The translations under genes were made by a program, and so were the position numbers. Shown one piece after another: positions 54,457 to 64,000 of a stretch of 64,000 bases of DNA (the stretch's first letter is position 1; the number at the start of each line of letters is the position of its first letter). A model generated the notes under the pieces. That model made no database searches. It was not told the DNA's origin and was given only the letters and a program-made list of their open reading frames with translations. The stretch is from assembly GCF_017348835.2 (NCBI RefSeq), contig NZ_CP071375.1, one strand, 5' to 3'. The stretch is from Escherichia coli. GTDB lineage: Bacteria; Pseudomonadota; Gammaproteobacteria; Enterobacterales; Enterobacteriaceae.

Positions 54457-54621
54457 ATGGCAAAGCCGATCATCACGCTCAATGGCCTAAAAATCGTCAT
54501 TATGTTGGGAATGCTGGTCATTATTCTCTGCGGTATCCGTTTTGCCGCCGAGATCATCGTGCCGTTTATTCTCGCATTATTTATTGCTGTTATATATAAC
54601 TTATTTCACTTAACGCATTGA
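54457..54621 (+). pseudogene. tqsA: tqsA (AI-2 exporter) 5' fragment, truncated after codon 46 by an inserted element
   Basis: [46 protein letters not shown], then 8 unrelated codons and a stop; phage-like DNA follows. Confidence 0.8.
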
Positions 54622-55045
54622 TTTAATTAAATAATTTGCACCACAAAAAGTGCCAAAAATCGCAAAATGACTACACCAGTGACTACACCGTTCGGTGCAC
54701 CGTATGAAACAACGTGGAACAAATAGACACAAGAAATATACAGGCGGATCATCTTTCCAGGGGGAAGCGCACCAATTCATGAGGGGCGTTAATGTCGATA
54801 TGGGGATCCCCACCTACCGGAATTTTTTTCCGGTTAAACGTTAATCAGGCTGGTGGGCTTTACCTGTTCGGTAGGTGTTATGATTATCGTAATACCTTTC
54901 CCCCAATGGGGTAAAAGCATCAACCGTAACGAAAGTCGTTATGGTTGCCACCGATACCCCAAATTTGGGTATCACGAGTAAGCCCCAAAATCTGGGTGTT
55001 ACTCTTACTACCCAAACTACGGGTAGTTTCCGTAGTTTCATGGTC

Positions 55046-55065
55046 GAGTTGCAGATCTGCAACTC
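55046..55065. repeat. 20 bp perfect palindrome (gagttgcagatctgcaactc) within a repeat-rich stretch
   Basis: Read directly; neighbouring CCCAAA(N)GGGT-type repeats at 54957-55030. Confidence 0.6.
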
Positions 55066-55319
55066 CCCCATTAACCACAGGCGAATTTCCGCCTTCGGTC
55101 ATTCCTTAATCATCTGCGTAATCATAATGATTATTCAGCAAGCGCAATTTTGCGCTTTGCTTAAAGTTCAGCGAGTTACCGCGCCGACTTCCTCAAATTG
55201 AGGTTTCCGAAAATATCAGCGGGTTAGCGATTAAGCTGACCATTAATTAAACTGCGAAAATGTCGTAGTTGTGAGGGGTGTAGCCAACCCATTTTTGGGC
55301 CGTCGGGAATATCAACCAG

Positions 55320-55601
55320 TTACCGCCGCAACCGCTCCGGCTTCTTCCAGTGGTACGTTATTTTCTCCTTCTCCCGATACATCTCCACGCGGCGACGGTA
55401 GGCCAGCAACTCAAGAACTCTGGTTCGTATGTTGCGCATATCCACGGCATTAAGTTCTATACCATCACGGCGCATCACCTCCGCAACAACACGCGCATAA
55501 TTTTCAGCGGTCACGCTGTCCGGCTGCATGGCCTGTTCGTCAACCTGCTGGCTGATTCCGGCAACGCGGCGGATTAATCCCAGTATTTCGGCTTCTATCA
55601 T
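55320..55601 (-). CDS. Hypothetical protein (93 aa)
   Basis: ORF only. Confidence 0.3.
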   Translation of the reverse strand: MIEAEILGLIRRVAGISQQVDEQAMQPDSVTAENYARVVAEVMRRDGIELNAVDMRNIRTRVLELLAYRRRVEMYREKEKITYHWKKPERLRR

Positions 55602-55665
55602 TGTGCCCCCATCGTTCTGAAAGTCTGGTGTCGTCGGGTCCTTCCTGGAATTATGGCCCGTTACG

Positions 55666-55677
55666 GGGCGGCGACCT
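55666..55677 (+). other. Lambda-type cosN sequence GGGCGGCGACCT (plus orientation) with lambda-like cosB-type flank
   Basis: Exact 12-mer; downstream flank resembles the lambda left end as recalled (TTTATGAAAATTTT..., AAAAGAAACGACA). Confidence 0.7.
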
Positions 55678-55856
55678 CGCGGTTTTTATCTGTTTATGAA
55701 AATTTTTCTGGAAAAAGCATGTCGGTACTTCTCGAACATAACTATTTGTTTTTAAATAGATACACAATAAAAAGAAACGACACGGTAATCATCTAAAATG
55801 GCGATTTATGACGCTTTCATGTCGTTTCTCAGTTTTGTTCAATAATTGCGCGTCTG

Positions 55857-56369
55857 TTACTCGCCTTTCTTCTGTAGCAACTTTTCCGGTACGTTTCCGG
55901 TTGTTTCTTTCAAGTAATCAGCCAGTATCTGTGGGAGGTTGTCGGCAACTCTGGCACTGGCATTACAGGCTTTAACCACTTCCCTTTTAAGCCTATCCAG
56001 CATGGCGTGGGTAATCTGTGGGAAGCTCCTTTGCATAGTAAGCGGGAGGCTGTCCATGATTGATGAAATCTGACTCGCCAGCTTTGAAAGCGCGTACAGG
56101 CAAAACTCAGTATCAATCACGTCACCGCGATCGCGCTCGTTTTTAAGTTCCTGCGCCTCCGCCTGTGCTGTCAGTAATCTGATCCTGACTCGTAAGAGTT
56201 CATCATCATCAATATCGCCTTTGTCGTTTGTAAGCTGGCTAATTGCATTGTTAACCCTATTGTCTATCACGCTGGCAACATCGTAAAACGCCTCACGGCC
56301 TTTACGTTCAACGGGAGTCACTCCCCACTTGTCGAACGCTGTCGCACTTACACGGCAGCTTTTCGCCAT
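55857..56369 (-). CDS. Small-terminase (Nu1)-like protein with diverged N-terminal DNA-recognition region
   Basis: 170 aa; central/C-terminal region closely resembles NohA at 16716-17261 (LTAQAEAQELKNERD...); N-terminal ~45 aa diverged and shortened. Confidence 0.7.
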   Translation of the reverse strand: MAKSCRVSATAFDKWGVTPVERKGREAFYDVASVIDNRVNNAISQLTNDKGDIDDDELLRVRIRLLTAQAEAQELKNERDRGDVIDTEFCLYALSKLASQISSIMDSLPLTMQRSFPQITHAMLDRLKREVVKACNASARVADNLPQILADYLKETTGNVPEKLLQKKGE

Positions 56370-56399
56370 GTTTTTTTGTTCATCAGGTGCGATTTCATT

Positions 56400-56437
56400 A
56401 ATACACCAACTTAATTACTGCTTCAGGTTGGTGTATT
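56400..56437. repeat. 11 bp inverted repeat (AATACACCAAC N16 GTTGGTGTATT) between cos and the terS-like start
   Basis: Read directly; lies in the terS-like leader. Confidence 0.55.
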
Positions 56438-56531
56438 GTTTGCATCTTTCCCTTTTCATTCATAAAGATAGAGCAAACAACAAAACCACCACCACCCCCC
56501 TGAAAAGGCTCATAAATAGCGAAAAACCGCG

Positions 56532-56543
56532 AGGTCGCCGCCC
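56532..56543 (-). other. Second lambda-type cosN sequence (minus orientation), about 165 bp upstream of the terS-like gene
   Basis: Exact 12-mer AGGTCGCCGCCC on the plus strand; inverted relative to 55666-55677. Confidence 0.7.
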
Positions 56544-56604
56544 CGTAACGGGTCCATATGCCGGAAAGGTCCCGTAAAAAAAGCCGGATTTCTCCGGCCT
56601 TGTC

Positions 56605-57018
56605 TCAGATGGTTTTCAGTATGCGATCGATGTCGCCGTCATCGCCCTGGTTTCTGCCATCGTATGCCATGCCAGCTGATACGGCTTGCGGGCTGTGCAT
56701 GTCCATAAAGTTTTCAAAGGCTGCGGTAAGCTCTGGTGCAACCTTTGGGCGCTCCTGCTCTATGGTCATGTTCAGGATTTCACGAGCATTATCGACGCTA
56801 ATACATGGCACGTTTGCCATTGCACGTAACAGCGGCTGATAGTCTTTATGCTCATGAAGCGCCATAATCGCATCAGCGCGCGGCTTGTCCTGCTCTTCCA
56901 GTTTGTTTAGTTGATATACGGCCTCATAGGTTGATAAACCTCTGTCAGCCATTGCCCGCGCTTCGGCTTTAAATTTACTCGCCAGCGGTAGCGTCATGAT
57001 GCTTTCATTCGTTGCCAT
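56605..57018 (-). CDS. Hypothetical head-module protein (137 aa)
   Basis: ORF between the gpD-like and terS-like genes; no recognisable motif. Confidence 0.3.
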   Translation of the reverse strand: MATNESIMTLPLASKFKAEARAMADRGLSTYEAVYQLNKLEEQDKPRADAIMALHEHKDYQPLLRAMANVPCISVDNAREILNMTIEQERPKVAPELTAAFENFMDMHSPQAVSAGMAYDGRNQGDDGDIDRILKTI

Positions 57019-57030
57019 CGTTCCCCCTGC

Positions 57031-57430
57031 TTATCGGGCCAGCGGCTGAACGGATACGCCGGAACCCGCAAAGGCGGCGCATTTTTTCGCATCGGTGTCG
57101 ACGCTCTCAGGCCAGTTAACGGCGGCAATATTGAATATCCCCGTCTTGTAACACTGTGCTGATTTCTGCTTTGACGTGTCCACAGGATACGAAGTCAGAT
57201 AAACAGCCTTGCCAGATTCCTGACCATCCCACGGCTTAAACTCGCCATTGTCCGCCAGCATCAGCGGGGTAAATTCCTGAATAACGCCAGCATCAGCGGG
57301 GTAAATTCCTGAATAACGCCAGCATCAGCGGGGTAAATTCCTGAATAACGCCAGCATCAGCGGCAAAATGTACCAGCGTCGTGGCGACCTGCTGACTGCC
57401 TGCAAATAACTCAATGTATGGAGTGTCCAT
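57031..57430 (-). pseudogene. Lambda gpD-like head decoration gene disrupted by a 64 bp tandem duplication
   Basis: 5' part (MDTPYIELFAG...TPLML) and 3' part (ADNGEFKPWDG...YKTGIF...AFAG) resemble lambda gpD; frame is restored by removing two 32 bp repeat copies. Confidence 0.65.
57254..57363. repeat. Tandem repeat: 32 bp unit (gccagcatcagcggggtaaattcctgaataac) x3 plus a 14 bp partial copy
   Basis: Perfect copies at 57254-57285, 57286-57317, 57318-57349; partial at 57350-57363. Confidence 0.9.
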
Positions 57431-57441
57431 AGAATCCCCCG

Positions 57442-58497
57442 TTAAGCAATTTTGACAGTAACAAATTTGCGAATATCTGCCGGAACCGGCTGCGGTGCGC
57501 TGTGCGTCTGCACGTACTCAATCGCCGGATCTCCGTCCTCAATCCAGTTTTTCGGGTAGTACATGTTTTGCGTTGCCCCCGTTCTTACTGCGTCCTGATC
57601 CATAATCGCACCATAGGCCACCAGCCCTTTATTGTTGGTGTTGCCCAGGACAAGCAAATCAGGCTCAAGGAAATATTTTTCTGTGCCGTCGCTGTCAGTG
57701 TATTTGCCGGAATAGACGATAAGGGCCAGATCACCAAGATAGCCTTTAAAGCTCACCACTTCGCCCAGGTTTTTACATGCCAGCTCTGCGGCGGATTCTG
57801 AACCACGGGAGAGATCGTACAGTTCACGGAATTTTTTAAAGCTGCGTAACATGCGCCATACATCAACGCCCATAATCATGACGTTGGCGGGGCAACCTGC
57901 CTGATCTGCGTATAGTTCAATGTCATATATTGGGTCGTGTATGTCTTTATCCTGCTCAGACCATTTTTTACCGTCGGCCTGCTCTATGATGTTTTTTTCC
58001 GGTATCTTCCAGTCGATTTCATAGCGTTCTATGCCTTCGCCCTCAATGATGTTTTTTCCGGTCGTTACCGCATTCACCGCCAGCCATTCAACGTGTGCCT
58101 TAATGGCGTTTATCTGGCGGCGCATGTTGCCAGTAATCAGGCGCATACGGCGGTAGGTAGGATCGTTAAGCTGTGCCGGATCTTCTCCAGCCATGCGCAT
58201 TATTGTTTTTAATGGATCGATTTCGTGTTTTGGCTTCATGTAGCCAGGGCGGATAATGCTGGTTTCGTACCCTTTATCGCGCTGAACCTGGCTGCCAACC
58301 ATAGGCGAACAAAACGCCGACATAGTGACTTCTTCAATATCCAGGTTATCTAACATGATGTCCTGCGTGTTGAATGTCGCCACGTTCGGGAAAAACAGCG
58401 CGGTAAACAGCGGACTAAATTTAAATTCCGCAATATCCTCGCGATTCAGGTACGCGAAAAGCTGGTGTGTGTTAAGTGCTATTGCTTTGACTGCCAT
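57442..58497 (-). CDS. Major capsid protein, lambda gpE homologue
   Basis: 351 aa; shared blocks KFxPLF..LFF, PGYxKPKHE, DPxYRR, SxKGxxGDxAIVVYSG, YPKNW..GDPA, SAP with lambda gpE as recalled. Confidence 0.8.
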   Translation of the reverse strand: MAVKAIALNTHQLFAYLNREDIAEFKFSPLFTALFFPNVATFNTQDIMLDNLDIEEVTMSAFCSPMVGSQVQRDKGYETSIIRPGYMKPKHEIDPLKTIMRMAGEDPAQLNDPTYRRMRLITGNMRRQINAIKAHVEWLAVNAVTTGKNIIEGEGIERYEIDWKIPEKNIIEQADGKKWSEQDKDIHDPIYDIELYADQAGCPANVMIMGVDVWRMLRSFKKFRELYDLSRGSESAAELACKNLGEVVSFKGYLGDLALIVYSGKYTDSDGTEKYFLEPDLLVLGNTNNKGLVAYGAIMDQDAVRTGATQNMYYPKNWIEDGDPAIEYVQTHSAPQPVPADIRKFVTVKIA

Positions 58498-58736
58498 TAT
58501 TCGCCCCCATAATTTTTGTGCATCCCAAGCGCCGCAAGTAAATAAGATCGCACAAGTGAACCTATCGACGGCTCCGGCGTCATCAGCGGATCCAGTCCAG
58601 CCGCAACGCCAGCTTCATAGTTTTTTTTGTGGCGCTGCTTGAGCACCTCCACGATTTCGGGGCTTATGTACACCGAAACACCGCCTTTTTTCTCTTCAGC
58701 CATAGTAAGAAATTCCTCTTCGACTAAAAAAATCAT
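58497..58736 (-). CDS. Hypothetical protein
   Basis: ORF only; start may be an internal Met (MAEEKK). Confidence 0.3.
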   Translation of the reverse strand: MIFLVEEEFLTMAEEKKGGVSVYISPEIVEVLKQRHKKNYEAGVAAGLDPLMTPEPSIGSLVRSYLLAALGMHKNYGGE

Positions 58737-58954
58737 AACTGGATGTTTATCCAGTCCTGATTATAATCAGAATTGCATTTTATGCAATGATATTGAGTTA
58801 TGTTGCAAATTATGAAATGATTATCCCGATCACGAACGCCAGTGCATCCAAAAACCTCATATGCAAAAGCCCGATAAGAACCCTCTGACCTTATCGGGCT
58901 TTTTTTGGGCGCAAAAAAGCCGGATTGCTCCGGCTATGTGTGCTGTGTGCTGGC

Positions 58955-59179
58955 TCAGTCTCTGATCTCTTTCAGAAATTCTATCAATGCATCTATCTGT
59001 TCAGGATTTACCGCCAGCATTTCACCGGATAGAGCACATCTCACAAAACCATGCTGATCCTTTTCAATCAGTGCGCCCGTCTCCAGGAATGCGCGGTAAT
59101 CATTGATGCTCATCGTCTCCATGTTGTCAGCATGGTATTTATCACGCTGTTTTAATATCTCATCAAATTTCATCGGCAT
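58955..59179 (-). CDS. Hypothetical protein (74 aa)
   Basis: ORF only. Confidence 0.3.
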   Translation of the reverse strand: MPMKFDEILKQRDKYHADNMETMSINDYRAFLETGALIEKDQHGFVRCALSGEMLAVNPEQIDALIEFLKEIRD

Positions 59180-59305
59180 TGTTTTTTTCCTCTGTTGTGT
59201 CTGTTTGTTTCAGATAGTAACTATGCCTGACCGTGACGAAAACCCGGTAATGCGCCATACCGTTTCAACTGGTGCAAAAAAAGCCGTATTTCTCCGGCTG
59301 TTTGA

Positions 59306-59578
59306 TTAGCTGTCCTGGTAATTGCGCCATATTTCATCACCAGCACCATCTATACCCATTTCGGCATAAGTGCGATCGACTGCCTTTTTCAGGTCTCCGA
59401 AATTATCCGGCGGCTCCGGTGCCCTCTGTGCCTTCCTTGAACATTCCAGCCGTCGCATCGTGATGTGATGCCGTTCCTTGTCTGTCTCCACCAGCTGCAT
59501 GACTTCACCCCATCGCGCCGCCGCCCTCCGGTAAAAGCCTTTCGCCTCCAGTTCCTCCGCTATGCGGTCATGTACCAT
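59306..59578 (-). CDS. PerC-family transcriptional activator-like protein (Pch-like)
   Basis: MVHDRIAEELEAKGFYRRAAARWGEVM... resembles the PerC/Pch N-terminal signature from memory; start at the internal Met of the ORF. Confidence 0.6.
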   Translation of the reverse strand: MVHDRIAEELEAKGFYRRAAARWGEVMQLVETDKERHHITMRRLECSRKAQRAPEPPDNFGDLKKAVDRTYAEMGIDGAGDEIWRNYQDS

Positions 59579-59588
59579 CGTCACCCCC

Positions 59589-59999
59589 TCAGAACGAAAT
59601 ATCATCACCGTAAGGGTCATCGCCTCCCGCTGGTGGCTGATTACCCTGTGTGCCTGTGGTTTTGCGTCTGTTCCCGCCAGGAAGTGCCGCACGGGCACTG
59701 ATTACGCTGTCTGCAATAACCTGATAACCCTGCCGCGTTTCCCCATTCTGTCCGGTCCACTGGCTGACCTGCATCGTGCCGGATACGCTGGCAACGTCGC
59801 CTTTTTGATGTTTAGCCAGGAAGTCGGCCTGCTTACCAAATGCGATGACCGATAGCCATAACGTCGCCTGCCCATCCTGCGCCTGACTACATGGCAGCGA
59901 TACCGCCATACGCGCCAGCGTCATCGGTGTACCCTTGCTGGTCTGTTTTACCTGCTGGTCGTCCACCAGCCGCCCGTAAGCCGCTATCTGTGCTGTCAT
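59589..59999 (-). CDS. SSB-like single-stranded DNA-binding protein
   Basis: 136 aa with Gly/Pro-rich tail ending in the acidic DDISF (compare SSB DDIPF). Confidence 0.55.
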   Translation of the reverse strand: MTAQIAAYGRLVDDQQVKQTSKGTPMTLARMAVSLPCSQAQDGQATLWLSVIAFGKQADFLAKHQKGDVASVSGTMQVSQWTGQNGETRQGYQVIADSVISARAALPGGNRRKTTGTQGNQPPAGGDDPYGDDISF

Positions 60000-60304
60000 G
60001 CCGTCTGCTCTCCGGTTTTAACGTTGATGGTTGTTACCTGTTCCGCTTCGGCAATCTCCCGTTCTGTCAACGTGGCAAAGTTTGCCGCTGCTGTGGTCAT
60101 GAATGCGCTTATCAGTTCGGGATGCTCCTTCGCGTATCCTTCCCCCGCGTGGCGGTCTATCGTTCTGATTGCCACCTTTAAAGCCAGTTCAGCCATATCT
60201 AACGCCTTATATTTCGGCTCTGTTCTGTCTCTGCGTTTTTGGGTCATTTCTCGCAACCTCTCACTTTTTCGCCTCACTTTTTCAAGCGTCTCACTTCGTC
60301 GCAA
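59996..60304 (-). CDS. Hypothetical protein
   Basis: ORF overlaps the SSB-like start by 4 bp. Confidence 0.3.
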   Translation of the reverse strand: MRRSETLEKVRRKSERLREMTQKRRDRTEPKYKALDMAELALKVAIRTIDRHAGEGYAKEHPELISAFMTTAAANFATLTEREIAEAEQVTTINVKTGEQTA

Positions 60305-60447
60305 TTGGGATTTTTGGTTTTTCTATGTGTGTGTTTCATAAGTATTTTTTTACCCCTCACTTTTGAGGATGTATACAGGTAAAAAAGTGAGGGAGAGCAG
60401 GCTAATTTTGGCCCTCTTTCTATCCACCTCGCTTTTGCTCCTCACTT

Positions 60448-61854
60448 TTATAGCGGCGCTACATCATCCCCATCGATACGAATAACCCCATCTTTTTCCA
60501 GCTTGTACAGCCAGCGCCGGAAGTTTTTCATTTCATACCCCAGTTTTTTCATGTCATCACGTAACAGCGGGATCGTGCACTTGTCGCCGTTCTGTGTGCG
60601 TGAACGGATGCACCCCCATAGCGCGGTATGGTTTTCCGTCTTGTTCCCTGCCTCCTCGATGCGCTCCAGTTCTGCCGGTTCGCGTGGGATGTCAATCACC
60701 ACCATGGACACGATTTCTTCACCCTCAGGATCCGTAAATACCTCCACGCTCTTAAGGTCGTAGGCACTTTCTTTTGGCTCCTCCGCGTCCTTCATCTTCG
60801 TACATGCTGCAACCAGCGCCGTAGCCTCTGAATGTTCCCGACTGATTCGGAACTCAGCATCAAGCGCCGCACGGAATGCACTGGAACCCCGCGCCCCTTT
60901 CGTCTCATCCTTGCCGGAATGATGCACAACCAGAACCGTGGCCCCCGTGGCCTGCTTTATCGCGTCACACCCCTGGATAAACGCCCCCATGTCGCGGGAG
61001 TCATTTTCATCATGACCACCAAAGCAACGGGCCAGCGTGTCAATGACAATCATCCGCACCCTTTCGCCCGTTCTGTCCTGCACTAATCCGGCGGTCCTGA
61101 TAACCTGTTCCACATAGTCCGGCGATGCGGGGAATACTGGCGAATTGACGATACACAAATCAGTAACCGCCTTACCGTGGGTTATTTCCCATGCCTTAAC
61201 GCGGCGCTTTACGCCCATACTTCCTTCACCAGCAACATAGATAACCGCGCCTTTACACACCCTGCGGCCTCCCCATTTCATTCCAGTGGCAACATGACAC
61301 GCCCACGAAATGGCAAGGAACGACTTATAGGAACCGCTCGCCCCGTAGGTGCTGCATAATGCTTCCGCCGGAATAAGCCCCTTAATCACGTAGCTTTGCT
61401 GCGCGTCGAACCCTTCCGATCCCCATGAAATCGGTAGCGTGATTTTTTGTTTTCCTCCGTTCATGATCAGGCTTTCCCCTCTCTCCCATGTCTCCCGTAG
61501 CCGTGGAAGCTGGTCGGTCCATTTCTCCAGTAATTCGAAGTTTTCAGAAAGCAGCCGCGCTTCATGGACTCCGGCGATCGCCAGTTTTGTCGCTATGGTT
61601 AACAGCTGCGCTTCGTCAATATTTCCGGCGCGTATCACCGTTACCCTGTATCGCCCCTCATCAACAATCTGCAGGTTGTCCAGTTCGCTTAACTGATAAC
61701 GCCCCAGGTAAACGGGAGGCGTGGAGTCTCCCGCCTTTTTGGCCTGTGCAATGATGTAGTGCTCTGCAAATGAGTGCGCATCATTCCCCGCGAAAATAAT
61801 TGCTTCGGTGTGTTTGTCTTTCGGTAATAGTTTTACGTTCGGTGCCAGTTTCAT
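60448..61854 (-). CDS. RecA-fold AAA ATPase (RepA/DnaB-like replication protein)
   Basis: 468 aa; Walker A GASGSYKS; Walker-B-like MIVIDTL; C-terminal wHTH-like region. Confidence 0.7.
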   Translation of the reverse strand: MKLAPNVKLLPKDKHTEAIIFAGNDAHSFAEHYIIAQAKKAGDSTPPVYLGRYQLSELDNLQIVDEGRYRVTVIRAGNIDEAQLLTIATKLAIAGVHEARLLSENFELLEKWTDQLPRLRETWERGESLIMNGGKQKITLPISWGSEGFDAQQSYVIKGLIPAEALCSTYGASGSYKSFLAISWACHVATGMKWGGRRVCKGAVIYVAGEGSMGVKRRVKAWEITHGKAVTDLCIVNSPVFPASPDYVEQVIRTAGLVQDRTGERVRMIVIDTLARCFGGHDENDSRDMGAFIQGCDAIKQATGATVLVVHHSGKDETKGARGSSAFRAALDAEFRISREHSEATALVAACTKMKDAEEPKESAYDLKSVEVFTDPEGEEIVSMVVIDIPREPAELERIEEAGNKTENHTALWGCIRSRTQNGDKCTIPLLRDDMKKLGYEMKNFRRWLYKLEKDGVIRIDGDDVAPL

Positions 61855-62150
61855 TTTTTACCCCTGAATACGTTAAGCATCTTTTTTATTTCCTGAATAT
61901 TGGCGCGTGCTTTCTCCCTGCTGGTTGGAACGTTACGCGGTACAGCCTGCACCAGAGAAAAATCACGGTCGAACTGATAAACAGGCATCACGCAATCATA
62001 TTCGTAGCCTTCACGACGGTAGGTTACGCGCCGTTCCTCCACGCCCTTAATCATTACCGTGCCGCCGTACTGGTCGCGGTAAATATCACCGCGCATGAAT
62101 TTAGTGCGAGTTTTGCCACTGGCAGTTAAGCCAGAATATTTAAGTTTCAT
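61851..62150 (-). CDS. Hypothetical protein (99 aa), translationally coupled to the ATPase gene
   Basis: Stop overlaps the ATPase start (ATGA). Confidence 0.3.
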   Translation of the reverse strand: MKLKYSGLTASGKTRTKFMRGDIYRDQYGGTVMIKGVEERRVTYRREGYEYDCVMPVYQFDRDFSLVQAVPRNVPTSREKARANIQEIKKMLNVFRGKK

Positions 62151-62155
62151 TATTT

Positions 62156-62389
62156 TTATTCTCCGGTGTGCTGTTCTTTATATCTGTCGTGCAATAGATC
62201 TATTTCTTGCAGTTCCATTATTACATGCTCAAGAATCGTTATTAATGCCGTGGCAATTCTTGATTTTTGTTTGTCGCGTTCATTGTCGCCAAGTGTTTCA
62301 AGCCATATGCGCAATATTTCCAGCATGTTTTCACTGTGAGAAAGTGCAAGAAATGCGCGGTCTATTGTTTCGAGGTAAATATCACGCAT
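62156..62389 (-). CDS. Hypothetical small helical protein (77 aa)
   Basis: ORF; starts MRDI. Confidence 0.3.
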   Translation of the reverse strand: MRDIYLETIDRAFLALSHSENMLEILRIWLETLGDNERDKQKSRIATALITILEHVIMELQEIDLLHDRYKEQHTGE

Positions 62390-62390
62390 A

Positions 62391-62612
62391 TTAATCCCCG
62401 TCCGTTGTTTTTCTTAAAATAACTTCTGTCACGAAATCAGCATAGTTAGCGGCAATATCAAGAATATTTAGCCCTGTATCTCTGTGCTCATCAGTGCAAA
62501 GAAAGAAAAAAGCCACCCGCATAATTTCAGATATTGACGAAAGCGCATCAGCCGCATCATCAGGAACGCCGGAAAATTCTTGTTTCAGGGAATTAAAACG
62601 ATCATCACGCAT
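62391..62612 (-). CDS. Hypothetical small protein (73 aa from MRDD)
   Basis: ORF; possible paralogue of neighbours. Confidence 0.3.
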   Translation of the reverse strand: MRDDRFNSLKQEFSGVPDDAADALSSISEIMRVAFFFLCTDEHRDTGLNILDIAANYADFVTEVILRKTTDGD

Positions 62613-62877
62613 AACCCCCCCCATTTTCATAATCTGCAACAAGAATATTTTTAGCGTCATTCAGCGACCGCGTGGCGGTGTATCGGATACATTCCAGGGC
62701 GAACAATGTGTATTCCTCCCGTTCTTCCTTTTGTGCAAGCTCTGCCGTGCATTCAATATCAATAAGCGCGTGCATCAGCGTAGTGAGTGCGGCTGCGTCC
62801 GGACGGATGTTATTGCACATGGTGTACCCCTCCGCATTTTTTTTCGTTAGAAATAAGCGTTCTTCTTTCCTGTTCAT
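62605..62877 (-). CDS. Hypothetical small protein
   Basis: ORF; start uncertain. Confidence 0.25.
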   Translation of the reverse strand: MNRKEERLFLTKKNAEGYTMCNNIRPDAAALTTLMHALIDIECTAELAQKEEREEYTLFALECIRYTATRSLNDAKNILVADYENGGGYA

Positions 62878-63043
62878 CGCTCAGGAATACGCAGACCTCA
62901 CCGCTAAGGCGTTTAAGTAAGCCGATGATTGCCCCTGATTCGCTGTCGGTCATCATGCCAGGGTAATCCTCTGCCAGTGCGCAAATAACTTCGATTTGGT
63001 GGGCGCGTTCTGCTGCCTGTTGTAGTGTGATTTCCTGGCTCAT
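62810..63043 (-). CDS. Hypothetical small protein (77 aa from MSQEIT), first gene of the leftward operon
   Basis: ORF. Confidence 0.3.
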   Translation of the reverse strand: MSQEITLQQAAERAHQIEVICALAEDYPGMMTDSESGAIIGLLKRLSGEVCVFLSDEQERRTLISNEKKCGGVHHVQ

Positions 63044-63327
63044 AAGCCTACCCCCTGGCGAATACGGGCGGCGAATACAGCAACACAACCTGACGGGCAA
63101 CGGTTACGCGCTTCGCGTTCCGTCCAGGCGGTTACGTGGATTATTTGAGATTCTCCGGCACTCAGTGCCAGAAAACGCCACACAAAGGCCGTTTGTGTGT
63201 GTACAAGGTGTGGTATATGATTTACAGCAACCATAACGGCTCCTAGTTTACGTTGTTGGTTAGAAGCCCTGCGAGTGGTAACGACACTTGCGGGGCTTTG
63301 TCTTTTCATCGATTACCTTGATAAAGG

Positions 63328-63407
63328 TGTCAGCCACTATATTAGTAACGGGTGTCAGCCACGTCAATAGTGTTTTTCCGTTTTCTTGTGTGTATACTGT
63401 CAGCCAC
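63328..63407 (+). promoter_or_regulatory. Three direct repeats of TGTCAGCCAC with a TATACT -10-like hexamer: candidate operator/promoter
   Basis: Repeats at 63328-63337, 63353-63362 and 63398-63407; TATACT at 63392-63397. Confidence 0.55.
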
Positions 63408-63428
63408 CTAATAACGAGGAAATCAGAT

Positions 63429-63608
63429 ATGGCAACAAAAGCAGTTAATGCAAAATCCAAAAAGCTTGAGGCTCGAGTACCACACGCAATAGCTGATGCT
63501 GTAGAAAATTTAAAGGAAGATGGCGAAAGTACAGGGCAATTTATCGTTTCGGCACTTGAAGGCGAGATCAAACGCCGCCAGCGCCGCAAGGCCAAAGAAT
63601 CAGAATAA
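63429..63608 (+). CDS. Small basic DNA-binding-like protein (possible ribbon-helix-helix regulator)
   Basis: 59 aa from MATKAVNAKSKKLEARVPHAIADAVENLKEDGE... Confidence 0.45.
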   Translation: MATKAVNAKSKKLEARVPHAIADAVENLKEDGESTGQFIVSALEGEIKRRQRRKAKESE

Positions 63609-63650
63609 TCACTATCAGCGCCGTGGTGTGAGGTATTACGGCGCATTGCT

Positions 63651-63839
63651 ATGCAGGACAACACAATGACCGATAAAGAATTGACCAAAACATTATCACC
63701 GGCACGGAAAAGACGGCGCAGAAAGATAGAACATGAATCAGAAAGATTCGCGCCATGTGCTTTTGCCCTTGAGCAATTCCTTAAAGAGTACAGGGAAAAG
63801 CGCTCATTGCAGGTATGGCAACGAACTGAACCAGACTGA
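63651..63839 (+). CDS. Hypothetical small basic protein
   Basis: ORF with RRRRK stretch. Confidence 0.3.
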   Translation: MQDNTMTDKELTKTLSPARKRRRRKIEHESERFAPCAFALEQFLKEYREKRSLQVWQRTEPD

Positions 63840-63935
63840 TTGCATTGCCCACCAGCCTGATAGCGGCTATCATCCCCGTGCTTATGTTTGGGATCACACA
63901 CACAAACGGCGCAGCGGGTTATCTGTTCAGAAAGG

Positions 63936-63962
63936 CGGCTCCATTTCGGGGCCGCTTTTTTT
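63936..63962 (+). terminator. Rho-independent terminator
   Basis: cggctcc atttc ggggccg stem followed by T7. Confidence 0.55.
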
Positions 63963-64000
63963 ATGCCTGAAAAACCCCAATTTTGTGGTTTTCCAGTCTC

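What the first reader, a model, noticed from the sequence alone, without database searches (positions are those of the whole stretch)
59306..59578. PerC/Pch-like transcriptional activator carried on the inserted element
The ~90 aa protein starting MVHDRIAEELEAKGFYRRAAARWGEVM resembles PerC-family activators, which in EPEC/EHEC control the LEE type III secretion regulon and are typically prophage-borne. A regulator cargo gene on a mobile element next to packaging genes suggests host-regulatory cross-talk.
Basis: partly seen in the sequence, partly recalled or inferred. Interest (0 to 1): 0.55.

Follow-up and report, generated by a model that had tools for sequence, protein, structure and literature searches.

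The report
pchE regulator on a phage satellite
The 90-residue gene is a real, intact copy of pchE, an already named PerC-family regulator that sits in the backbone of a small phage-satellite island in E. coli; published tests show this subgroup does not switch on the LEE virulence island, so the finding is correct but ordinary.

Summary
The ORF is real: window 59306-59578, minus strand, 90 aa. It matches Pfam PerC (PF06069) over its full length with E = 4e-43. The window comes from E. coli PE164 (pig), where RefSeq already names the gene "PerC family transcriptional regulator" (WP_000233304.1). The identical protein occurs in O157:H7 genomes. It is 90% identical to Sakai PchE (ECs1588, prophage Sp7 = OI-51 = cf-PICI EcCIEDL933) and shares the gene order orf83-ssb-pchE-orf74.

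The carrier is an ~11.5 kb integrase-bearing PICI-type satellite that splits tqsA, not a prophage. In five island types pchE is the last gene of the conserved early/replication block, ahead of variable modules. That makes it a backbone gene rather than variable cargo.

PE164 does carry a complete LEE with ler. However, as cited in the papers read here, group-3 pchE does not activate LEE1. Overexpression instead represses csgD/curli and induces flagella.

The predicted fold is a four-helix, TPR-like hairpin with no helix-turn-helix. There is a family-wide similarity to ANR regulators, always below the curated cutoff. The gene's role in the satellite life cycle has not been tested.

Verdict: family call right, LEE-activator reading not supported, already known, low interest.

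The parts
59306..59578 (-). pchE allele: 90-aa PerC-family regulator (the finding)
   Evidence: Pfam PF06069 E = 4.3e-43, residues 1-89 to model 1-89/90. 81/90 identical to Sakai PchE ECs_1588. RefSeq WP_000233304.1. All family-conserved residues are present.
59275..59299 (-). Intrinsic-terminator-like hairpin plus T-run, 7 nt after the pchE stop codon
   Evidence: AGCCGGAGAAATACGGCT followed by TTTTTTT. Conserved in Sakai Sp7 and PV15-279.
59589..59999 (-). Single-stranded DNA-binding protein (ECs1587 homologue), immediately upstream of pchE in the same unit
   Evidence: RefSeq annotation. phrog_44 SSB, E = 1e-36.
59996..60247 (-). orf83 (ECs1586 homologue), first gene of the orf83-ssb-pchE unit
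   Evidence: phrog_1231, unknown function. In O157:H7 PA20 the pchE transcript starts 10 nt upstream of ECs1586 (PMC7369912).
60248..60447 (.). Iteron-rich intergenic region (AAAGYGAG repeats), ori-like, between the replicase gene and orf83
   Evidence: 6 of the window's 10 matches fall within 60260-60448. The whole 64 kb window is expected to give 4.3 matches by chance.
58955..59179 (-). orf74 (ECs1589 homologue), last gene of the conserved module, bracketed by two terminator-like hairpins
   Evidence: 3/225 nt differences from Sakai. phrog_1957, unknown function. Terminator-like site at 58935..58918.
60448..61854 (-). RepA-family helicase (island replicase)
   Evidence: RefSeq annotation. 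phrog_2850/906.
61851..62150 (-). RgdR homologue (DUF4222), the experimentally shown T3S/LEE activator of OI-51-type islands
   Evidence: 93% identical to Sakai ECs1581, with the R20-G21-D22 motif intact. PMC3378721.
55857..58703 (-). Packaging/capsid module: orf68, lambda-E-like major capsid protein (57442-58497), head-decoration gene (57031-57430, frameshifted), orf137, small terminase (55857-56398, frameshifted)
   Evidence: RefSeq annotation. PHROG matches.
54601..64000 (-). Window portion of the ~11.5 kb PICI-type satellite that splits tqsA. The integrase and HTH regulator lie just beyond the window end.
   Evidence: tqsA fragments flank the island at L001 8458-8601 and 20079-20984, and the integrase is at L001 18673-19902.

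Best explanation
The ORF is an intact allele of pchE, the group-3 PerC homologue of E. coli. It is a small (90 aa), all-helical regulator.

It is the last gene of a three-gene unit (orf83-ssb-pchE) that ends in an intrinsic terminator. The unit lies directly downstream of the replicase gene and an iteron-type origin, in the backbone of a tqsA-integrated PICI-type phage satellite related to EcCIEDL933/OI-51/Sp7.

Shown here: identity, family membership, operon anatomy, conserved position, and the presence of a LEE in the host genome.

From published experiments on the Sakai/PA20 allele: it does not activate LEE1/ler appreciably. When overexpressed it lowers csgD/curli, biofilm, eae and stpA, and raises flhDC/fliC and motility.

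Inferred mechanism: PchE has no recognisable DNA-binding fold. Like PchA-C, which relieve H-NS/StpA/Hha silencing, it most likely acts by protein-protein contacts through its TPR-like N-terminal hairpin. The likely partners are nucleoid-associated silencers or other regulators. This would retune host surface and motility programmes, and possibly the island's own downstream modules.
For: Identity:
- Pfam PerC E = 4e-43, full length.
- 13 of 13 invariant or near-invariant family residues are present.
- 90% identical to Sakai PchE.
- The identical protein and DNA occur in O157:H7 genomes.
- 40% identical over 99% of its length to canonical perC of the perABC operon on pMAR7.

Anatomy:
- Terminator-like hairpins lie right after pchE and after orf74.
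- The orf83-ssb-pchE-orf74 module is ~95% conserved across islands whose flanks differ.
- A polycistronic ECs1586-ECs1587-pchE transcript was mapped by RACE (PMC7369912).

Carrier and position:
- The island has an integrase, an HTH regulator, Icd-like and DUF4222 genes, a replicase and an iteron region.
- pchE holds the same backbone position in L002, L003, L006, L007 and L008.

Function, from the literature: PMC6265319, PMC7369912, PMC11773190, PMC6092414. Pch anti-silencing of H-NS is in PMC4764244.

Fold:
- AF2 model with pLDDT 84.7 and four helices.
- No helix-turn-helix was found, and no PDB relative by sequence.
Against: - All strong PchE phenotypes come from plasmid overexpression. Deleting pchE changed little (PMC7369912).
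- The window allele differs from the tested Sakai-type allele at 9 of 90 residues.
- The promoter region mapped in PA20/Sakai is not conserved upstream of orf83 in this island. No sigma-70-like promoter was found there, so expression in PE164 is not established.
- The island is decaying: the TerS and head-decoration genes are frameshifted.
Confidence: 0.85

Rival explanations
1. One reading: a PerC/PchABC-like activator of ler/LEE1 that links the mobile element to type III secretion in this LEE-positive host.
For: Family membership is solid. PE164 has a complete LEE with ler. pchE overexpression raised ler 2.1-fold in PA20 (PMC7369912).
Against: Group-3 pchE had little or no effect on LEE operons or LEE1 fusions (PMC6265319 and PMC11773190, citing Iyoda & Watanabe 2004 and Porter 2005). 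eae fell 2.7-fold on overexpression (PMC7369912). The protein is only ~40% identical to EPEC PerC. The same gene family sits in islands of genomes from non-EPEC sources and, per PMC11773190, in UPEC CFT073 and the commensal MP1. The T3S activator of this island type is RgdR (PMC3378721), which is present at 61851-62150.
Confidence: 0.08
2. Satellite-internal regulator. PchE is a backbone gene whose main job is in the PICI life cycle, for example activating or de-silencing the downstream packaging or accessory module, or reprogramming the helper or host during induction. On this view the host phenotypes are side effects.
For: Its position is fixed at the end of the early/replication block, right before variable modules, in five different islands. 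It is co-transcribed with ssb (PMC7369912). The homologues above 60% identity detected here were all from E. coli, and no phage genome in the collection holds one. Three copies of the same terminator hairpin partition the downstream units, which leaves room for regulated read-through.
Against: There is no experimental evidence. The cf-PICI papers do not mention the gene. pchE transcription falls, rather than rises, under SOS-inducing SMX-TM (PMC6265319, PMC7369912). In islands without packaging genes it still precedes unrelated cargo.
Confidence: 0.25
3. ANR-like anti-activator. The protein binds and neutralises an AraC-family activator or H-NS, as Aar-type ANR proteins do, and so acts as a repressor of virulence genes. 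This is what was reported for the PICI-borne PerC-like EcCIMP1_025, which silences LEE1.
For: ANR_neg_reg (NF033650) is the top NCBIfam hit for this protein. It is also the top hit for 10 of 10 diverse PerC members including EPEC PerC, always in the same register. The fold is a TPR-like protein-binding hairpin. EcCIMP1_025 represses LEE1-lux, and its authors propose ANR-like action (PMC11773190). pchE overexpression lowers csgD, eae and lpfA1 (PMC7369912).
Against: Scores of 14-23 bits are all below the curated 32-bit cutoff, so this is not a member. The similarity is shared with the activator PerC, so it does not predict the direction of the effect. EcCIMP1_025 is only ~40% identical to the EcCIEDL933 homologue (PMC11773190). 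No partner is known.
Confidence: 0.15
4. A silent passenger in a decaying island, with no current function in PE164.
For: TerS and the head-decoration gene are frameshifted, and a further CDS near the island's integrase end is truncated. No consensus promoter lies upstream of orf83 in this island.
Against: The ORF is intact and 100% identical at the DNA level to copies in many O157:H7 genomes. All conserved residues are retained. The RBS and terminator are intact.
Confidence: 0.1

Closest known systems
PchE (ECs1588 / Z-number homologue) of E. coli O157:H7 Sakai/EDL933, on Sp7 = CP-933C = OI-51 = cf-PICI EcCIEDL933
   Same: 81/90 residues are identical and the length is the same. The orf83-ssb-pchE-orf74 order and the terminators match. 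The identical protein WP_000233304.1 sits at the OI-51 site (roxA/phoQ) in O157:H7 PV15-279.
   Different: Nine substitutions. pchE is the most divergent gene of the shared module: 7% nt difference against 1-2% for ssb and orf74. Here the island is integrated in tqsA. It has a RepA helicase instead of the Sakai primase. It has a lambda-E-like capsid, a decoration protein and TerS instead of the HK97-type capsid, protease, portal, TerS and TerL. The region upstream of orf83 differs.
PerC of EPEC (perABC operon, EAF plasmid pMAR7) and PchA/B/C of EHEC lambdoid prophages
   Same: Same Pfam family and similar length (89-90 aa for EPEC PerC). Alignable end to end at 40% identity. The conserved D4, A7, L10, E11, G14, R17, R18, A19, R22, W23, C46, M74, G75 positions are shared.
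   Different: PerC and PchABC activate LEE1/ler by relieving H-NS silencing (PMC4764244). Group-3 PchE does not (PMC6265319). The genetic contexts also differ: plasmid per operon or prophage moron versus satellite backbone.
EcCIMP1_025, the PerC-like protein of PICI EcCIMP1 (E. coli MP1)
   Same: A PerC-family gene in the backbone of an E. coli PICI (PMC11773190).
   Different: Only ~40% identical to the EcCIEDL933 homologue. It strongly represses LEE1-lux in C. rodentium, whereas the EcCIEDL933 and EcCICFT073 homologues had no LEE1 effect (PMC11773190).
ANR (AraC negative regulator) family, e.g. Aar; NCBIfam NF033650
   Same: Small helical proteins. Residues ~6-52 of PerC-family proteins align to positions 8-54 of the 54-position ANR profile.
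   Different: The score is below the curated cutoff (20.4 against 32 bits). PerC proteins carry an extra C-terminal helix with the M74-G75 motif.

Membership tests
PerC family (Pfam PF06069) | Significant, full-length match to the family profile | tested here: met
   E = 4.3e-43, 146 bits, residues 1-89 to model 1-89/90. It is the only Pfam family hit.
PerC family (Pfam PF06069) | Family-conserved residues (D4, A7, L10, E11, G14, R17, R18, A19, R22, W23, C46, M74, G75) | tested here: met
   All are present in the window protein, in a 61-sequence alignment that includes EPEC PerC.
PerC family (Pfam PF06069) | Small (~90 aa) helical protein | tested here: met
   90 aa. The AF2 model has four helices and pLDDT 84.7.
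PerC family (functional sense: LEE1/ler activator) | Activates the LEE1 promoter / ler | not testable with these tools
   Published tests of the Sakai/EDL933 allele found little or no effect (PMC6265319 and PMC11773190, citing Iyoda & Watanabe 2004 and Porter 2005). ler rose 2.1-fold on overexpression (PMC7369912).
Pch group 3 (PchE) | High identity to ECs1588 and the same length | tested here: met
   81/90 identical with no gaps. The identical protein occurs in O157:H7 genomes.
Pch group 3 (PchE) | Synteny ECs1586-ECs1587(ssb)-pchE-ECs1589 within an OI-51/Sp7-type island | tested here: met
   The integration site and the flanking modules differ (tqsA; RepA helicase; lambda-E-like capsid).
ANR family (NCBIfam NF033650) | Score at or above the curated cutoff (32 bits) | tested here: not met
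   20.4 bits, E = 3e-4. Ten further PerC members scored 14-23 bits.
PICI-type phage satellite (the carrier element) | Integrase at one end; ~10-15 kb; specific attachment site | tested here: met
   A tyrosine integrase lies at L001 18673-19902. The island is ~11.5 kb and splits tqsA.
PICI-type phage satellite (the carrier element) | Own replicase followed by an iteron origin | tested here: met
   RepA helicase at 60448-61854. AAAGYGAG iterons cluster at 60260-60448.
PICI-type phage satellite (the carrier element) | No tail or lysis genes; partial packaging module only | tested here: met
   The annotation lists only a capsid protein, a decoration protein, TerS and hypotheticals.
PICI-type phage satellite (the carrier element) | Induction and mobilisation by a helper phage | not testable with these tools
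   Needs experiment. The frameshifts in TerS and the decoration gene suggest this copy may be defective.

The most novel reading that the evidence does not exclude
PerC-family proteins of E. coli PICIs may not be virulence cargo at all. They may be conserved backbone regulators: TPR-like/ANR-like protein binders that act on H-NS-type silencers or other regulators to control the satellite's own downstream (packaging or accessory) modules, or the host state, during the satellite cycle. On this view the LEE, curli and flagella effects are by-products, and PerC of EPEC would be a domesticated satellite regulator.
Probability: 0.2. Interest if true: 0.5.

Novelty: already known. Interest (0 to 1): 0.15.

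Why it matters
This is an already annotated allele of a gene that has been studied experimentally, so the immediate value is small. It does correct the expectation that a PerC-family hit means a LEE activator. On this island type the documented T3S activator is RgdR, not PchE, while PchE overexpression shifts curli and flagella expression. One question remains open. A PerC-family gene holds a fixed backbone position in many E. coli phage satellites, and nobody appears to have tested what it does for the satellite itself.

Tried and rejected
1. Sequence search of the PDB with the family profile gave nothing significant (best E = 0.28, a 22-residue stretch of ribosomal protein uS3).

3. ANR membership was rejected because the score is below the curated cutoff.

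4. The promoter scan found no sigma-70-like site upstream of orf83 or pchE on the minus strand. The PA20/Sakai promoter region is not conserved here, so the published transcription start cannot simply be transferred to this island.

5. Porter et al. 2005 (PMC543544) is not held in the library. Its result is cited second-hand through PMC6265319 and PMC11773190.

6. The first literature query ('PerC' plus 'PICI' as word starts) returned only noise.

7. LEE check. A chimeric-query count gave PE164 4 places with escN and ler appended, against 2 without. selC was then found empty. The LEE was found directly at the cadC/pheU site.

8. The longer 130-aa reading (GTG at 59698) was rejected as the start because it overlaps ssb and the family profile begins at the ATG.

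Full report
**Observation.** It has an ATG at 59578, a stop codon at 59306-59308, and encodes 90 aa starting MVHDRIAEELEAKGFYRRAAARWGEVM. A GAGGGGG ribosome-binding site precedes the ATG. The mechanical ORF list extends the frame to a GTG at 59698, which overlaps the upstream ssb gene. The family profile and the homologues all begin at the ATG, so the ATG is the start. It is the only PerC-family ORF in the 64 kb window.

**Family.**
- Pfam PerC (PF06069) matches residues 1-89 to model positions 1-89/90 with E = 4.3e-43.
- PHROG 994 matches with E = 3e-47. Weaker matches go to PHROGs labelled 'transcriptional activator'.
- A phmmer search of 1.84 billion representative proteins found only 105 clusters at E <= 0.001, so the family is small.
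- In a 61-sequence alignment that includes canonical EPEC PerC, the window protein carries every invariant or near-invariant residue: D4, A7, L10, E11, G14, R17, R18, A19, R22, W23, C46, M74, G75.
- All 61 sequences hit PerC. One member also has a weak, unrelated Pfam hit.

**Source and identity.** The window is 100% identical to the chromosome of E. coli PE164 (pig, Nanjing; NZ_CP114128.1). There RefSeq already annotates the CDS as 'PerC family transcriptional regulator', WP_000233304.1.
- The gene is 100% identical at the DNA level to copies in O157:H7 genomes. Of 5426 complete E. coli genomes, 962 give a blastn match and 358 match at >=99% identity.
- In Sakai, the gene named pchE (ECs_1588) lies in 'prophage Sp7; untypable', preceded by ECs_1586 and ECs_1587 (ssb) and followed by ECs_1589.
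- The window protein is 81/90 identical to Sakai PchE, without gaps.
- The 1.3 kb module orf83-ssb-pchE-orf74 is about 95% identical between the window, O157:H7 PV15-279 and Sakai. The sequences on both sides of the module diverge.
- Within the module pchE is the most divergent gene: 19/273 nt, with 9 non-synonymous and 6 synonymous codon changes. ssb differs at 9/411 nt and orf74 at 3/225.
- Canonical perC of the perA-perB-perC operon on pMAR7 is 40% identical over 99% of the query.
- No phage genome in the INPHARED collection has a homologue above 60% identity. Phages match only the N-terminal ~52 residues, at ~38% identity.

**The carrier element.** The gene lies in an ~11.5 kb island that splits tqsA. 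All the genes listed below are on the minus strand.
- Just beyond the window end: a tyrosine integrase and a small HTH regulator.
- Within the window: an Icd-like gene, several small ORFs, and a DUF4222 gene (61851-62150).
- Next: a RepA-family helicase (60448-61854), then orf83, ssb, pchE and orf74.
- Next: orf68 and a lambda-E-like major capsid protein (57442-58497).
- Last: a frameshifted head-decoration gene, orf137 and a frameshifted small terminase.

There are no tail or lysis genes. The intergenic region between the helicase gene and orf83 holds 6 of the window's 10 AAAGYGAG motifs within 190 bp, against 4.3 expected by chance in the whole window. It therefore looks like an iteron origin. 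This is the architecture of Gram-negative PICI satellites (PMC6092414). Sakai Sp7 = CP-933C = OI-51 (PMC3378721) is EcCIEDL933, the prototype capsid-forming PICI (bioRxiv 10.1101/2022.09.08.507074). So the element is a phage satellite, not a prophage.

**Position of the gene.** I looked at five related islands: PV15-279, Sakai, VTB96815v, C5 and ZF8-1. In each, the PerC-family gene is the last gene of the block DUF4222 - replicase - (hyp) - (SSB) - (ProQ/FinO). What follows differs every time:
- a lambda-E-like capsid with TerS;
- an HK97-type capsid, protease, portal and terminase;
- TerS with a pyocin and its immunity gene;
- three large unknown proteins;
- a SEFIR-domain protein.

The gene therefore behaves as backbone rather than variable cargo. 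Terminator-like hairpins follow pchE (59299..59282) and orf74 (58935..58918). A third copy of the same hairpin follows orf137. In O157:H7 PA20, RACE placed the pchE transcription start 10 nt upstream of ECs1586, giving a polycistronic ECs1586-ECs1587-pchE RNA (PMC7369912). The region upstream of orf83 in the window differs from Sakai, and no sigma-70-like promoter was found there. Expression in PE164 is therefore inferred, not shown.

**What is known experimentally.**
[quoted passage not shown] Only group 1 is needed for ler/espA expression and adherence (PMC6265319, citing Iyoda & Watanabe 2004 and Porter et al. 2005).
- The PerC-like genes of EcCIEDL933 and EcCICFT073 had no effect on LEE1-lacZ fusions (PMC11773190, citing Porter 2005).
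- Plasmid-expressed pchE represses csgD, csgA, curli-dependent Congo-red binding, biofilm and HEp-2 adherence (PMC6265319).
- It raises fliC about 20-fold, raises flhDC more than 2-fold and increases motility. It lowers eae 2.7-fold, lpfA1 2-fold and stpA 2.5-fold, and raises ler only 2.1-fold. Deleting pchE has little effect (PMC7369912).
- pchE transcription falls under the SOS-inducing SMX-TM treatment (PMC6265319, PMC7369912).
- That PICIs carry PerC alleles was noted in 2018 (PMC6092414) and again in 2025, when the PerC-like EcCIMP1_025 was found to silence LEE1 (PMC11773190).
- The mechanism known for PchA-C is relief of H-NS/StpA/Hha/YdgT silencing at LEE1 (PMC4764244).

**The LEE check.** I first used a counting trick. 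A query made of the PE164-specific island end plus Sakai escN and ler gave 4 places in PE164, against 2 for the island part alone. Two control genomes did not change. I then looked directly. selC is unoccupied. A complete LEE lies next to cadC, at the pheU site, with intimin-beta eae, tir, escN, escV, grlRA and ler at 4,511,338-4,511,709. The island also carries a 93%-identical homologue of RgdR (ECs1581) with its RGD motif intact. RgdR is the gene of OI-51 shown experimentally to activate type III secretion (PMC3378721).

**Structure and mechanism.**
- AlphaFold2 with the 61-sequence alignment gives a confident model (mean pLDDT 84.7) with helices at 5-13, 16-29, 33-50 and 60-74.
- The PDB holds no relative by sequence and none by Foldseek.
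- No helix-turn-helix is apparent.
- The NCBIfam ANR_neg_reg model is the top hit for this protein at 20.4 bits, against a cutoff of 32.
- ANR_neg_reg is also the top hit for 10 of 10 diverse PerC members, including EPEC PerC. The register is always the same and the score is always below the cutoff.

I read this as a family-wide distant relationship of the N-terminal three-helix hairpin, not as ANR membership. Taken with the Pch/H-NS work, the most likely mode of action is protein-protein contact with nucleoid-associated silencers or other regulators, rather than autonomous sequence-specific DNA binding. This step is inference.

**Verdict.** The family assignment is right. The element is a PICI-type satellite rather than a prophage. 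The gene is backbone rather than cargo. The LEE-activator expectation is contradicted by published tests on this subgroup, even though the host has a LEE. The gene is already annotated, named and studied, so novelty is 'already known' and interest is low. The one open point is what a PerC-family gene does for the satellite itself. Its conserved position suggests such a role, and I found no paper that addresses it.

Noticed in passing
window 61851-62150 (-): The DUF4222 ORF is a 93%-identical homologue of RgdR (Sakai ECs1581), with the functionally required RGD motif (R20-G21-D22) intact. RgdR, not PchE, is the experimentally shown T3S/LEE activator of OI-51-type islands (PMC3378721), and PE164 is LEE-positive.
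   Followed up: partly
window 60248-60447: The intergenic region between the RepA helicase gene and orf83 holds 6 copies of AAAGYGAG (5 on the minus strand, 1 inverted) within 190 bp. The whole 64 kb window is expected to give about 4. This is probably the island's iteron-type replication origin.
   Followed up: partly
window 57253-57363 (head-decoration gene 57031-57430): There are three perfect tandem copies of a 32-nt unit. The intact gene in PV15-279 is 336 nt against 400 nt here, a difference of 64 nt or two extra copies. The annotated frameshift is therefore caused by a tandem duplication.
   Followed up: partly
window 56577-56603, 58913-58939, 59277-59303: The same terminator-like hairpin (AAAAAAGCCGGATTTCTCCGGC on the + strand) occurs three times: after orf137, after orf74 and after pchE. 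It partitions the island into short transcription units, which raises the possibility of regulated read-through.
   Followed up: no
window 55857-58703: This satellite carries a lambda-E-like major capsid protein, a decoration protein, an orf137 with weak similarity to the C-terminus of head-maturation proteases, and a TerS. It has no portal, protease or TerL. The Sakai cf-PICI has a full HK97-type set attached to the same early module. The islands are therefore a modular mosaic, and this may be a distinct partial-capsid satellite flavour.
   Followed up: partly
window 55857-56398 and L001 17605-18052: The small terminase is frameshifted and a CDS near the integrase end is truncated. This copy of the island is probably decaying and may not be mobilisable, yet pchE, ssb, rgdR and the replicase gene are intact.
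   Followed up: no
window 59221-59349 (-): RefSeq annotates a 42-aa hypothetical protein (WP_001301569.1) that overlaps the 3' end of pchE and runs through its terminator hairpin. It is probably a spurious call.
   Followed up: no
window 54664-54739 and L001 19924-19999: A 76-nt imperfect (76%) direct repeat lies near both ends of the island, just inside the split tqsA fragments. It may contain integrase arm or att-proximal sites.
   Followed up: no
L011 (PE164 4,488,036-4,516,108), L010 and L009: PE164 carries a complete LEE (intimin beta) at the cadC/pheU site. ETT2 remnants (eilA frameshifted, eip-like genes, iatC) lie near an unoccupied selC. Gene order around oriC is inverted relative to K-12, while the tqsA region is collinear, which implies a large inversion.
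   Followed up: partly
plasmid CP061267.1 161329-161598 (hit H56): A 171 kb E. coli plasmid record (sheep) encodes a protein 100% identical to this PchE allele. This is unusual, because the other copies detected were chromosomal: only 1 of the 1117 blastn places in complete E. coli genomes lay on a plasmid.
   Followed up: no
window 59306-59578 compared with L003 41773-42045: pchE is the fastest-diverging gene of the conserved module: 7% nt difference, with 9 non-synonymous and 6 synonymous codon changes, against 1-2% for ssb and orf74. This suggests allelic diversification of the regulator.
   Followed up: partly
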